NCBI GenBank assembly: GCA_964016885.1
Contig: CAXHJY010000866.1
Coordinates: forward strand, 58,137 to 122,136
DNA from: Eledone cirrhosa
Taxonomy: Eukaryota
DNA length: 64,000 bases
Direction: 5' to 3'
How positions within the stretch are numbered: the first letter of the stretch is position 1; each line of letters begins with the position of its first letter. The position numbers were made by a program, and so were the translations under genes. The notes under the pieces were generated by a model. That model saw only the letters and a list, made by a program, of their open reading frames with translations. It had not been told where the DNA came from and did not search any database. Below are positions 45,953 to 52,782 of the stretch, in pieces.

Positions 45953-46027
45953 TATATATATATACATATATATAATATATATATATATATTATATATATA
46001 TATATAATATATATATACATATATATA

Positions 46028-46058
<31 letters not shown>

Positions 46059-46214
46059 CATATATATATTATATATATATATATATATATAATATATAAT
46101 ATATATATACATATATATAATATATATATATATACATATATATAATATATATATATATACATATATATAATATATATATATATGCATATATATAATATAT
46201 ATATATATATATAC

Positions 46215-46292
<78 letters not shown>

Positions 46293-46296
<4 letters not shown>

Positions 46297-46630
46297 CAAC
46301 CCCCCCCCCTCTCTTATTTGAAGAACTATTGTAACGCGAACTGGCGCGAAATTTATTATAATTATTGACAAACCAATCAAATTACTTCTCGAAAAACCTG
46401 GCTTTTGAGCCACTTTTTCCATATAAAACAAGTAACATTTAGAGACCAACCAGATGTGAGAAAAACCACAGAACCTCCATCTCAACTCACCTTTTGAAAA
46501 GCAGAAGAACTGCGAAACCGGTAAAGGAACCAAATAGATATATATATTTTTAAAAAAATAAATATATATATATTTTGAAAAAAAAATAAGTCTTCAGTTG
46601 CATTTTCGATTTCATCCCTTTTTCTTTATA
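46293..46630 (+). mobile_element. solo Penelope terminal repeat in a TA tract, with hammerhead 46490-46527
   Basis: Homologous to 42640-42900. cctt-TTGAAAA-gcag-aagaa-ctgc-GAAAC-cg-GTA-aagg. Confidence 0.8.
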
Positions 46631-46657
46631 TATATACATATATATATATATATATAA

Positions 46658-46824
<167 letters not shown>

Positions 46825-46901
46825 CATACATATATATATATATATATACATACATATATGTATATATATATACATACATATATGTATATATATATACATA
46901 C

Positions 46902-47000
<99 letters not shown>

Positions 47001-47021
47001 CATATATATATATATACATAC

Positions 47022-47118
<97 letters not shown>

Positions 47119-47249
47119 TATATATAATATATATATATATAATATATATATATATATATAATATATATATATATATTATATATATATATATAATATATAT
47201 ATATATATATAATATATATATATATATATAATATATATATATATAATAT

Positions 47250-47304
<55 letters not shown>

Positions 47305-47456
47305 TATATATAATATATATATATATAATATATATATATATATATAATATATATATATATATTATATATATATATATAATATATATATATATATATAATA
47401 TATATATATATATATAATATATATATATATATATAATATATATATACATATATATA

Positions 47457-47491
<35 letters not shown>

Positions 47492-47647
47492 CATATATAT
47501 ATTATATATATATATATATATATAATATATAATATATATATACATATATATAATATATATATATATACATATATATAATATATATATATATACATATATA
47601 TAATATATATATATATGCATATATATAATATATATATATATATATAC

Positions 47648-47731
<84 letters not shown>

Positions 47732-47735
<4 letters not shown>

Positions 47736-48070
47736 CAACCCCCCCCCCCTCTCTTATTTGAAGAACTATTGTAACGCGAACTGGCGCGAAATTTATTATA
47801 ATTATTGACAAACCAATCAAATTACTTCTCGAAAAACCTGGCTTTTGAGCCACTTTTTCCATATAAAACAAGTAACATTTAGAGACCAACCAGATGTGAG
47901 AAAAACCACAGAACCTCCATCTCAACTCACCTTTTGAAAAGCAGAAGAACTGCGAAACCGGTAAAGGAACCAAATAGATATATATATTTTTAAAAAAATA
48001 AATATATATATATTTTGAAAAAAAAATAAGTCTTCAGTTGCATTTTCGATTTCATCCCTTTTTCTTTATA
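47732..48070 (+). mobile_element. duplicate of 46293-46630 (1440-bp period), hammerhead 47930-47967
   Basis: Essentially identical sequence, including the flanking microsatellite pattern. Confidence 0.8.
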
Positions 48071-48097
48071 TATATACATATATATATATATATATAA

Positions 48098-48276
<179 letters not shown>

Positions 48277-48329
48277 CATACATATATGTATATATATATA
48301 CATACATATATGTATATATATATACATAC

Positions 48330-48426
<97 letters not shown>

Positions 48427-48447
48427 CATATATATATATATACATAC

Positions 48448-48556
<109 letters not shown>

Positions 48557-48670: not shown

Positions 48671-48797
48671 ATATATATATATATAATATATATATATATA
48701 ATATATATATATATATATAATATATATATATATATTATATATATATATATAATATATATATATATATATAATATATATATATATATATAATATATAT

Positions 48798-48831
<34 letters not shown>

Positions 48832-48839
48832 ATATATAT

Positions 48840-49003
<164 letters not shown>

Positions 49004-49068
49004 TATATATAAATATATATATATAAATATATATATAAATATATATATATAAATATATATATAAATAT

Positions 49069-49103
<35 letters not shown>

Positions 49104-49512
49104 CAATATTAAATGAATGGAAAACTATATTTGTAAAGCCATATTTGTTTCATTATATATGTTTCGGGGATGTCATATTATCGGTGTGCTGTGCCTTCAT
49201 CGGACAAAGTACAATGTGGGCAGTTTTGTGGATGGATATGTTCGACATACCGTGGTAAACATCAACTTCATTTGAAGAGGTTTACGCTGAAGTTGATGAA
49301 GTTGATGTTTGTTGCGGTATGTCGAATGTGTTTATCTGTGAGACTGTTTATATTGTGTTTTGTCTGATGAAGGCGTAGCATGTTGTTGGTGTGATGTCCC
49401 CGAGGTGTATATAATGAGGTAGATATGGTTTTGTAGATATGGTTTTCCATTTGTTTAATATTGTAAATATGCTCCAAATATTTGTCGAGTGCTTTTATAT
49501 CAGTTTTATATC

Positions 49513-49515
<3 letters not shown>
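49104..49515 (+). mobile_element. fold-back Penelope terminal-repeat element with A-to-G hypermutation in both arms
   Basis: 49104-49270 aligns to 15832-15990 and 49296-49510 aligns to 20110-20310. Differences are almost all A>G on the + strand. Confidence 0.85.
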
Positions 49516-49543
<28 letters not shown>

Positions 49544-49553
49544 CATATATATA

Positions 49554-49594
<41 letters not shown>

Positions 49595-49598
49595 TATA

Positions 49599-49679
<81 letters not shown>

Positions 49680-49704
49680 CATATATATATACATATATAT
49701 ATAC

Positions 49705-49793
<89 letters not shown>

Positions 49794-49802
49794 AATATAT
49801 AC

Positions 49803-49864
<62 letters not shown>

Positions 49865-49865
49865 G

Positions 49866-49896
<31 letters not shown>

Positions 49897-49898
49897 GT

Positions 49899-49937
<39 letters not shown>

Positions 49938-51055: not shown

Positions 51056-52774
51056 CATTATGAAGAGAGAAGAAACATTTAGATATAATTAGTAATAAAA
51101 TGTATCATACCTAAACTGCTCCTAAATTCCTCGACTACGTAGTTTCGTGGCATAAACAAAAACAATATATCAGAGATATAGAGTCCTTGCGAGGTCTGCC
51201 GACTTATCAAGAGGATACCTCATTTTACTAGTCTCAAGAACGCGTCTACACGACGTGAGAAAGAATCCCAAAAGGCGGAGGGGGAGATAGTCACGCGATA
51301 TAACGCTCGAGAAACAGAGCTAAGCCTCCTATAACCACGAAGAAAATACCACGGGGGCGGAGGGGGTATTCATATCGAGGCCGCAGAAGAGGAAGTGAAG
51401 AAGGCGAGAAGTATGAGTAATGGAAGCTTTCCAGTTGTCCCCACACTTCAAAGATTGCTCGACCAGAGGGAGTTATTAACAATATATTTAGAAACACACA
51501 GATACACGCGGACACACACATATAGACATGAATGCATCCGCACCCAACTGTGAGTTAAGGGTGCCAACTTCACCGATGTTGCTCAATGAATGACTGGGAC
51601 AGACCAATTCAGTTTGAACCAGACTGAACCAGTATCAGAGTTAAAAATACATTATGAAGAGAGAAGAAACATTTAGATATAATTAGTAATAAAATGTATC
51701 ATACCTAAACTGCTCCTAAATTCCTCGACTACGTAGTTTCGTGGCATAAACAAAAACAATATATCAGAGATATAGAGTCCTTGCGAGGTCTGCCGACTTA
51801 TCAAGAGGATACCTCATTTTACTAGTCTCAAGAACGCGTCTACACGACGTGAGAAAGAATCCCAAAAGGCGGAGGGGGAGATAGTCACGCGATATATATC
51901 TCTGATATATTGTTTTTGTTTATGCCACGAAACTACGTAGTCGAGGAATTTAGGAGCAGTTTAGGTATGATACATTTTATTACTAATTATATCTAAATGT
52001 TTCTTCTCTCTTCATAATGTATTTTTAACTCTGATACTGGTTCAGTCTGGTTCAAACTGAATTGGTCTGTCCCAGTCATTCATTGAGCAACATCGGTGAA
52101 GTTGGCACCCTTAACTCACAGTTGGGTGCGGATGCATTCATGTCTATATGTGTGTGTCCGCGTGTATCTGTGTGTTTCTAAATATATTGTTAATAACTCC
52201 CTCTTGTCGAGCAATCTTTGAAGTGTGGGGACAACTGGAAAGCTTCCATTACTCATACTTCTCGCCTTCTTCACTTCCTCTTCTGCGGCCTCGATATGAA
52301 TACCCCCTCCGCCCCGTGGTATTTTCTTCGTGGTTATAGGAGTCTTAGCTCTGTTTCTCGAGCGTTATATCGCGTGACTATCTCCCCCTCCGCCTTTTGG
52401 GATTCTTTCTCACGTCGTGTAGACGCGTTCTTGAGACTAGTAAAATGAGGTATCCTCTTGATAAGTCGGCAGACCTCGCAAGGACTCTATATCTCTGATA
52501 TATTGTTTTTGTTTATGCCACGAAACTACGTAGTCGAGGAATTTAGGAGCAGTTTAGGTATGATACATTTTATTACTAATTATATCTAAATGTTTCTTCT
52601 CTCTTCATAATGTATTTTTAACTCTGATACTGGTTCAGTCTGGTTCAAACTGAATTGGTCTGTCCCAGTCATTCATTGAGCAACATCGGTGAAGTTGGCA
52701 CCCTTAACTCACAGTTGGGTGCGGATGCATTCATGTCTATATGTGTGTGTCCGCGTGTATCTGTGTGTTTCTAA

Positions 52775-52782
<8 letters not shown>
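51056..52782. mobile_element. retrozyme-like ~594-bp unit in tandem and inverted arrangement
   Basis: Minus-oriented 1.4 units (period 594) are joined at ~51893 to plus-oriented 1.5 units (period 593). Hammerheads at 51128-51215(-), 51722-51809(-) and 52453-52540(+). Confidence 0.8.

What the first reader, a model, noticed from the sequence alone, without database searches (positions are those of the whole stretch)
49104..49515. Genomic fossil of an ADAR-hyperedited hairpin RNA: same-strand A-to-G changes in both arms of a hammerhead fold-back retroelement
Seen in sequence: this TA-flanked element is an inverted repeat of the Penelope terminal repeat. By manual alignment, the right arm (49311-49475 vs 20118-20280) has about 23 A>G changes against about 3 other substitutions. 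The left arm (49104-49262 vs 15832-15990) also has about 23 A>G changes, on the SAME (+) strand. The arms therefore mismatch each other as G:T pairs. Changed As mostly follow T or A, while As directly after G are spared (gaaat>gaggt twice). Changes largely stop beyond the duplex (after ~49475). Related copies (15.8, 20.2, 22.5 kb) have A at the alignable sites, so G is the derived state. The ribozyme GAAA box becomes GAGG. Established knowledge: ADAR deaminates A to I in long dsRNA, disfavours a 5' G neighbour, and reverse transcriptase reads I as G. APOBEC or CpG decay would give C>T/G>A instead. Inference: a fold-back transcript was hyper-edited, then reverse-transcribed (probably by a Penelope RT) and integrated. 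RNA editing would thus have been written into germline DNA, possibly as a host defence that disables the ribozyme.
Basis: partly seen in the sequence, partly recalled or inferred. Interest (0 to 1): 0.95.

Follow-up and report, generated by a model that had tools for sequence, protein, structure and literature searches.

The report
RNA editing copied into octopus DNA
A small jumping-gene hairpin in an octopus genome carries about fifty A-to-G changes of the kind that RNA-editing enzymes make, and other copies like it show that edited RNA has repeatedly been copied back into inherited DNA.

Summary
Confirmed and extended. The 49104-49505 fold-back is an inverted insertion of a Penelope-like terminal repeat. 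Against unedited genome copies it has 23/72 and 24/57 A>G in its two arms, on one strand, with 0 T>C and 1/11 in the unpaired tail; 29 of 29 best relatives are unedited. The host is an octopod with ADAR genes. Motif scans found five more independent edited insertions of this family among 6,111 repeat matches, and two clear ones in a second family. Pooled 5' neighbours: U 46%, A 40%, C 23%, G 5% (p=4e-12). Edits stop at loops and tails and lie on the RNA strand. One edited hairpin rides in the 3' UTR of another Penelope-like element: 40 of 40 copies on 17 contigs are edited and have gained more A>G. Best explanation (0.92): ADAR edited read-through hairpin RNA, which Penelope-like reverse transcriptase then inserted. 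'Defence by ribozyme inactivation' is unsupported. No reads confirm the window allele. Precedents are ADAR-edited retroviral sequences and APOBEC-edited endogenous retroviruses; nine literature searches found no report of inherited ADAR-hyperedited retrotransposon copies.

The parts
49104..49271 (+). Left arm: antisense copy of the Penelope-like terminal repeat, ending at the tail-less end; 23 of 72 A read G on the + strand
49272..49295 (+). Apex/junction: part of the inner stem missing and a short duplication relative to unedited hairpins (inferred reverse-transcriptase slip at the tight apex)
49296..49463 (+). Right arm: sense terminal repeat; 24 of 57 A read G on the + strand
49364..49422 (+). 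Minimal type I hammerhead-like motif: core C3-A9 at 49364-49370 unchanged, G12-A15.1 box at 49402-49405 with its last two A's changed to G, predicted cut after 49413
   Evidence: positions read by eye; stems; no Rfam match; motif numbering recalled
49464..49505 (+). Unpaired 3' tail, shortened by about 45 nt; 1 of 11 A read G
48700..49103 (.). TA-microsatellite left flank (part shown; target sequence of the family)
49506..49900 (.). TA-microsatellite right flank (part shown)
15832..20360 (+). Unedited 5'-truncated Penelope-like copy of the same family with long inverted arms; GIY-YIG-type endonuclease ORF at 17582-18487; used as a reference
22405..22800 (-). Unedited fold-back of a sister subfamily, tail on the left; reference for the edited copy on C3

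Best explanation
1) Penelope-like elements in this octopod genome insert into TA repeats as inverted pairs of their 3' end, one arm with a tail and one without (shown). 2) Such an insertion, or two neighbouring copies, is transcribed by read-through and folds into a long RNA duplex (inferred). 3) ADAR deaminates a quarter to a half of the duplex A's on that RNA strand and spares loops, tails and A's after G (pattern shown; enzyme inferred). 4) The RNA still ends in a sense terminal repeat, so a Penelope-like reverse transcriptase copies it, reads I as G, and inserts it at a new TA site in the germ line (inferred from ends, 5' truncation and strand). For the window copy the template was the + strand and priming began inside the unpaired tail. 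5) It is a rare by-product, not a targeted defence, but it is heritable: one edited hairpin inside the 3' UTR of another Penelope-like element was amplified and gained further A>G in later rounds (amplification shown; later rounds of editing inferred).
For: Spectrum 47 A>G: 0 T>C over both arms. Six independent insertions of this family (window; C2:369.87 Mb, 56 A>G; C3:156.11 Mb; C22:27.43 Mb; C320; carrier founder) with different junctions, orientations and subfamily backgrounds; shared edited sites are 1.3-2.0 times chance in all 10 pairs tested, no higher for window-C2 than for unrelated pairs. Pooled 5' neighbours T 121/262, A 99/246, C 22/94, G 4/82, p=4e-12; 3' neighbours flat; upstream G depletion is the metazoan hyper-editing motif (PMC5625713). 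Duplex restriction: C2 tail 0/35, carrier loop 1/21, carrier tail 1/33; in the 1.5-kb flank carried along at C22, two small hairpins have 12/27 and 7/19 changes and their tails 0/26 and 1/32. The edited strand is the sense strand of the carrier ORF and of the 3' repeat at C22 and C9, i.e. the RNA, not the cDNA. Carrier lineage: 40 of 40 hairpin copies on 17 contigs edited, 28 shared and 28 variable A>G sites; polymorphic columns in the duplex 33 A/G vs 6 C/T, elsewhere in the same element 75 vs 74, p=1e-4. ADAR deaminase exons on C6, C1, C25, one 94% identical to Octopus vulgaris ADAR2; octopus had the most hyper-edited reads in the species table, and lizard Penelope RNA is heavily edited (PMC5625713).
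Against: No RNA or raw DNA reads of this animal were available, so inosine, germ-line expression and the window allele are unverified; C893 is a 122-kb unplaced contig. At C320 and C22 only the 5' antisense arm is edited and no partner is present in the DNA; the upstream partner that would explain this is seen only at C9. No unedited source copy with the same junction was found for the window copy (40 scored of 2,220 candidates), C22 or the carrier hairpin. The 28 variable sites in the carrier lineage show no 5' G avoidance (4 of 8 G-preceded A's vary). Pfam does not recognise either family's ORF. The second-family hit on C4 gave mixed counts (13/11/12/12; 22 A>G, 27 T>C).
Confidence: 0.92

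Rival explanations
1. Adenines were deaminated in DNA, on the new cDNA strand of the RNA:DNA hybrid during reverse transcription (ADAR on hybrids, or an unknown deaminase), as APOBEC does for cytosine.
For: At C320 and C22 the single edited arm has its changes on the strand that would be first-strand cDNA if each arm were primed separately, running beyond its present partner and through the tail. ADARs can edit the DNA strand of hybrids in model substrates (review PMC12925331).
Against: A hybrid covers the whole cDNA, yet tails, loops and non-hairpin flank are spared (0/35, 1/21, 1/33, 0/26, 1/32). Both-arm copies need changes on the sense arm too. In the carrier the edited strand is the ORF's sense strand. 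An antisense-tail scan gave 7 matches, of which only C22 is hyper-edited. C9 shows an edited upstream sense partner.
Confidence: 0.04
2. Sequencing or assembly artefact, or edited cDNA mixed into the assembly.
For: No reads confirm the window allele; palindromes between long TA runs are hard to sequence.
Against: 29 equally palindromic copies are clean. Edited copies lie inside contigs of 32-443 Mb. 28 identical changes recur in 40 copies on 17 contigs. At C22 two inverted copies carry the same changes mirrored. The neighbour bias is ADAR-like.
Confidence: 0.02
3. As in the best explanation, but the process is an evolved host defence that inactivates the ribozyme and stops the element.
For: The G12-A15.1 box is changed in all four events whose sense arm is edited (window, C2, C3, carrier). 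The single edited copies have no descendants among the scan hits.
Against: Those A's follow A, a favoured context, and 25-50% of all duplex A's change. About 6 events among 6,111 matches. Edited RNAs did integrate. Ribozyme mutants did not reduce insertion in vitro (PMC11167929). Genomic survivors cannot show RNAs that editing destroyed, so a defensive effect on RNA stability is not excluded.
Confidence: 0.12
4. Reverse-transcriptase error (G opposite U under nucleotide-pool imbalance) or biased repair of DNA cruciforms.
For: Could give one substitution type on one strand.
Against: Misincorporation acts on the cDNA strand and would not respect duplex borders; cruciform repair copies existing differences and would mirror them; neither predicts sparing of A after G.
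Confidence: 0.02

Closest known systems
ADAR-type A-to-G hypermutation in avian retroviruses (Rous-associated virus, avian leukosis virus; Hajjar & Linial 1995, Felder 1994, seen only through review PMC12925331)
   Same: An inverted-repeat RNA region with nearly half of its A's changed to G, carried into DNA by reverse transcription.
   Different: Virus isolates rather than inherited chromosomal copies; here a non-viral Penelope-like element, at least eight separate insertions, and one lineage that kept spreading.
APOBEC-edited endogenous retroviruses in vertebrate genomes (PMC4866542, passages; PMC2873906, passages)
   Same: Hypermutated retroelement copies fixed in the genome, recognised by one substitution type, strand bias and a neighbour motif.
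   Different: G>A from cytosine deamination of cDNA, not tied to RNA duplexes; that screen looked for G>A in LTR elements and found invertebrates negative. Here A>G, RNA strand, duplex-restricted, invertebrate.
A-to-I hyper-editing of repeat RNA (inverted Alus, frog Harbinger hairpins, lizard Penelope; PMC5625713, passages)
   Same: Same substrate type, density and 5' G depletion; Penelope RNA is a known target; octopus is the most heavily hyper-edited species in that table.
   Different: Those edits are seen in RNA against an unedited genome; here they are in the genome.
Canonical C-terminal-endonuclease Penelope-like elements (PMC8557442, passages; PMC11167929, main text)
   Same: Inverted 5'-truncated copy, tail at one end only, microsatellite target, hammerhead motif in the terminal repeat.
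   Different: Tail about 90 nt rather than 30-40; clade not assigned here; no editing described in the passages read.
Non-LTR retrozymes (bioRxiv 10.64898/2026.07.22.740005, part 1 of 5)
   Same: Non-coding, Penelope-derived, type I hammerhead.
   Different: Retrozymes are tandem direct repeats with a ribozyme in each unit; this is one inverted pair with a single sense motif.

Membership tests
ADAR hyper-editing signature | Clustered A>G on one strand, complementary change absent | tested here: met
   47 A>G, 0 T>C in the arms
ADAR hyper-editing signature | Confined to double-stranded RNA | tested here: met
   tails and loops 1/11, 0/35, 1/21, 1/33, 0/26, 1/32; two one-arm cases lack a visible partner
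ADAR hyper-editing signature | Depletion of G 5' of the edited A | tested here: met
   4/82 vs 242/602, p=4e-12; not seen for the 28 later sites in the carrier lineage
ADAR hyper-editing signature | Edited strand is the transcribed (template) strand | tested here: met
   sense strand of the carrier ORF and of the 3' repeat at C22 and C9; for the window copy alone either strand could have been the template
ADAR hyper-editing signature | ADAR genes in the host | tested here: met
ADAR hyper-editing signature | Inosine in the RNA; ADAR dependence; germ-line expression | not testable with these tools
   no RNA run listed
Penelope-like element (C-terminal endonuclease) | RT followed by GIY-YIG endonuclease with Cys motifs | tested here: inconclusive
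   Carrier 828-aa frame has RT-like, Cys and YIG motifs in that order (motifs recalled) and look-alike clusters with GIY-YIG/RVT_1 on 18-77% of members; window ORF is 42% identical to its C-terminus; Pfam gave no hit; no tree built
Penelope-like element (C-terminal endonuclease) | Inverted 5'-truncated copy with variable spacing | tested here: met
Penelope-like element (C-terminal endonuclease) | Tail at one end only | tested here: met
   43 of 43 ordinary inverted pairs; tail longer than the 30-40 nt described
Penelope-like element (C-terminal endonuclease) | Microsatellite (TA) target | tested here: met
   29 of 29 left flanks end in TA runs
Penelope-like element (C-terminal endonuclease) | Hammerhead ribozyme in the terminal repeat | tested here: inconclusive
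   core boxes in order, stems I and II fold weakly (-2.3, -4.9 kcal/mol); no Rfam hammerhead match; cleavage untested
APOBEC-edited retroelement | G>A clusters on the sense strand | tested here: not met
   0 G>A in the arms
Non-LTR retrozyme | Two or more tandem direct units, each with a hammerhead | tested here: not met
   single inverted pair
MITE / fold-back DNA transposon | Symmetric ends, fixed size, DNA intermediate | tested here: not met
   asymmetric tail, spacing from about 100 bp to over 4 kb, many different apices

The most novel reading that the evidence does not exclude
In octopods, ADAR editing plus Penelope-like retrotransposition forms a standing route from RNA editing to inherited DNA change: any duplex in a read-through transcript, including passenger and flanking sequence, can be written back with A>G, and an element that keeps transposing gathers new edits round after round, so ADAR acts as a directional germ-line mutator whose site preferences are recorded in the genome.
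Probability: 0.6. Interest if true: 0.88.

Novelty: new variant of a known kind. Interest (0 to 1): 0.8.

Why it matters
A-to-I editing is described as not directly inherited (PMC7703385), and a 2016 review says that a role of ADAR in shaping or suppressing retrotransposon subfamilies by mutation had not been determined (PMC4982230); write-back of edited RNA has been argued for mainly from correlations (PMC10209271). These copies are single-molecule records of that write-back in a lineage known for heavy editing. They imply ADAR activity on repeat RNA in germ-line cells, give its site preferences without RNA data, show that a Penelope-like enzyme can copy long inosine-rich hairpins and carry 1.5 kb of flank, and offer edits as markers of which RNA templated each arm of an inverted insertion, an open point in the Penelope mechanism. 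A reference-free G:U-versus-A:C scan makes the question testable in any genome. The scale found is small (about 0.1% of repeat matches) and only repeat sequence is affected so far.

Tried and rejected
Sequencing runs: one listed, kind unknown, 5% of words; no RNA holder listed. Its contigs mostly read A at edited sites and none spans the element: no evidence either way on the window allele. Rfam: 0 matches at gathering score in the window; 23 sub-threshold matches on an unedited copy, none a hammerhead. Pfam: no hit for the endonuclease ORF or the 828-aa ORF. A two-G motif found only the window copy. An apparent mirrored T>C in the C2 apex proved to be native sense sequence (corrected in notes). 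My first reading that the amplified edited hairpin was the carrier's own terminal repeat was wrong: the carrier has its own repeat 2 kb downstream. Common descent of the window and C2 copies rejected. Single-G hits L064-L067, L069-L073, L079, L089, L094, L095, L098, L101, L102 are not hyper-edited; L123 and L182 judged unedited by eye; L122 and L138, L139, L141-L143 were judged from the matched motif only. The reference-free scan of 840 kb of overlapping loci (167 inverted pairs, 43 with six or more transitions) flagged known copies plus L053, which was a misalignment; its masking missed the C2 and C3 copies, so it is no census; nine other inverted pairs in the window show no skew. Earlier findings of the scan: none. 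Hajjar & Linial 1995 and Carmi 2011 were not held. A last clean recount of the second-family arms without TA runs was not run, so C9 upstream-arm and C4 counts rest on the noisier.

Full report
OBSERVATION. The window is G000:C893:58137-122136 of a 3.0-Gb eukaryote assembly. The element at 49104-49505 lies between long TA runs. A genome search with it scored 40 of 2,220 candidates; the other 39 are full-length fold-backs at 84-86% identity. Of the 29 fetched, all carry 0-2 A>G against their majority sequence. Against one of them (L021) the window copy has 23/72 A>G in the left arm, 24/57 in the right, 1/11 in the tail, no T>C, G>A or C>T, and one transversion. The unedited RNA folds into a perfect hairpin of about 186 bp (-293 kcal/mol); with the changes read as G it still folds (-220) through G:U pairs. 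A after G is never changed (0/14), A after T most often (29/59).

WHAT THE ELEMENT IS. A motif from the repeat with A/G left open matches 6,111 places; the first 100 listed are mostly inverted pairs about 100 bp to over 4 kb apart. In 43 of 43 ordinary pairs examined exactly one arm has the tail and the arms are nearly identical. Inverted truncated copies, a one-sided tail and microsatellite targets are typical of Penelope-like elements (PMC8557442, passages), and the purified lizard enzyme extends both target strands from two RNA start sites that define the tail (PMC11167929, main text parts 1-2 of 4). The window's copy at 15832-20360 has an ORF (17582-18487) 42% identical to the endonuclease end of a full-length 828-aa frame found elsewhere, which has RT-like, Cys and YIG motifs in order and look-alike clusters with GIY-YIG and RT families; Pfam itself gives no hit. 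So the fold-back is the short end of the normal insertion spectrum. This matters: an inverted arm made during insertion from an edited RNA has mirrored changes, as seen in L124 and at C22. Co-strand changes in both arms mean that both arms were already in one molecule when it was edited.

HOST. Deaminase-domain exons of the ADAR family lie on C6, C1 and C25; the C6 piece is 94% identical to Octopus vulgaris ADAR2, so the host is an octopod. Octopus had the most hyper-edited reads in a cross-species table, upstream G depletion is general, and lizard Penelope RNA is heavily edited (PMC5625713, passages).

OTHER EDITED COPIES. Motifs with one or two fixed G's (1, 4, 10, 46, 3 and 7 matches) gave five more independent insertions. 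(a) C2:369.87 Mb: full hairpin in the opposite orientation, 30/73 and 26/57 A>G, tail 0/35. (b) C3:156.11 Mb: sister subfamily, 22/48 and 20/41. (c) C320: antisense arm 37/160, edited beyond its partner, sense arm 0/57. (d) C22:27.43 Mb: antisense arm with tail 34/88, sense arm 2/86. (e) a founder hairpin now in many copies. The motif recovered every event found by the other four single-G motifs (9 of 9), so the family total is probably near six, about 0.1% of matches, although exact-match motifs miss diverged copies. Pooled 5' neighbours are T 121/262, A 99/246, C 22/94, G 4/82 (p=4e-12); 3' neighbours are flat. Shared sites between events are 1.3-2.0 times chance in all ten pairs, which fits site preference, not descent. 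In a second repeat family a two-G motif gave 5 matches: the C22 flank again, C9:18.40 Mb (antisense arm 51 A>G, 1 T>C over 690 nt), C2:96.36 Mb (12 and 0), C4:344.88 Mb (looks edited by eye, counts mixed) and C1:83.46 Mb (not edited).

RNA, NOT cDNA. The one-arm cases raised the possibility of deamination of cDNA in the RNA:DNA hybrid. C22 argues against it. Its junction occurs twice in the genome, 1.8 kb apart and inverted: one insertion whose longer arm carries 1.5 kb of upstream flank, both arms sharing the same edits. In that flank two small hairpins of the second family are changed in both arms on the same strand (12/27, 7/19) while their unpaired tails are not (0/26, 1/32). At C9 the edited antisense arm faces an edited upstream sense copy (20 and 25 G-type mismatches against 1 and 8 of the opposite type) while the 3'-most sense arm is clean. 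The simplest reading is read-through RNA in which the antisense arm pairs with an upstream copy, leaving the last sense repeat free for the enzyme to start on; at C320 and C22 that partner is not in the DNA and is assumed lost by 5' truncation, or the template was switched (the C22 arms differ at four non-A>G positions). This remains unexplained in detail.

AN EDITED LINEAGE. A junction motif with A/G open matched 36 places; 40 hairpin copies on 17 contigs were examined and all are edited, with 28 A>G shared by at least 90% and 28 variable (inverted duplicates of one insertion are counted separately). The unpaired part of the longer arm is spared (1/21), although the same sequence is heavily edited in the window copy, where it is paired. 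The hairpin sits in a TA run in the 3' UTR of a different Penelope-like element that has its own terminal repeat 2 kb downstream, variable 5' truncation and its own inverted arms. Within this element polymorphic columns are 33 A/G vs 6 C/T in the duplex (217 columns) and 75 vs 74 elsewhere (3,864 columns), p=1e-4 (depth is greater over the hairpin, which inflates density but not the ratio). That points to further editing in later rounds; against it, the later sites show no 5' G avoidance, and no tree was built.

MECHANISM AND DEFENCE. Shown: insertion anatomy, spectrum, strand, duplex limits, neighbour bias, recurrence, amplification. Inferred: read-through transcription, ADAR as the enzyme, the Penelope-like RT as the copier, germ-line timing. 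For the window copy the + strand RNA is the likely template, with priming inside the tail and a slip at the apex; the reverse direction would make the changes cDNA changes and fits worse with the spared tail and with the other copies. The ribozyme box is hit in all four events with an edited sense arm, as expected at this density; the motif cannot fold inside the long duplex, and ribozyme mutants did not lower insertion in vitro. I therefore treat this as leakage past editing, not as evidence of defence.

WHAT IS KNOWN. ADAR-type hypermutation of an inverted repeat in avian retroviruses was reported in the 1990s (through review PMC12925331, passages; the original was not held). Inherited hypermutated retroelements are known for APOBEC, with invertebrates negative for G>A (PMC4866542, passages; PMC2873906, passages; Carmi 2011 not held). 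A review of ADAR in viruses has no retrotransposon passage (PMC8586724). A 2016 review calls ADAR's role in Alu subfamily evolution undetermined (PMC4982230, passages). Nine full-text searches (listings and abstracts) showed no report of ADAR-hyperedited retrotransposon copies in a genome; subscription journals and supplements were not searched, so a prior report cannot be excluded.

VERDICT. Real, recurrent and best explained by ADAR editing written back by retrotransposition (0.92). New variant of a known kind; interest 0.8.

Noticed in passing
G000:C22:27423750-27429780 (L180): Both arms of one inverted insertion share a junction found nowhere else in the assembly and identical edits, suggesting that one template (or one arm copied from the other) makes both arms; in the carrier family either the tailed or the tail-less arm can be the longer one.
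   Followed up: partly
L002-L030, hairpin apex: The 29 unedited hairpins have many different apices at one hot spot that coincides with a native near-palindrome, so they were probably formed independently many times.
   Followed up: partly
window 51060-52780: A 1.45-kb fold-back with partial tandem copies of another TA-flanked repeat; no strand skew (5 vs 4).
   Followed up: partly
window 4859-6483 (-): Fragments of a non-LTR retrotransposon; RVT_1 hit E=4e-10.
   Followed up: no
window about 46000-48450: Tandem duplication of about 1.4 kb (two pairs of identical ORF ends) just left of the element's TA flank.
   Followed up: no
L129:1026-3483: An 819-aa open frame resembling the carrier's N-terminus by eye, probably another intact Penelope-like family; no Pfam hit.
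   Followed up: no
run X1, loose end at window 49204: One 255-nt contig end looks like an independently A>G-rich variant of the repeat; run type unknown.
   Followed up: no
L082 and L124:1873-2100: Two carrier-derived copies end at the passenger hairpin's tail rather than at the carrier's own repeat, suggesting that the edited hairpin can still serve as a start site.
   Followed up: partly
G000:C6:13644405-13646174: ADAR2-like deaminase domain in only two pieces here, against five or four exons at the C1 and C25 loci; the tool's 700-aa open frame was not reproduced (273 aa).
   Followed up: no
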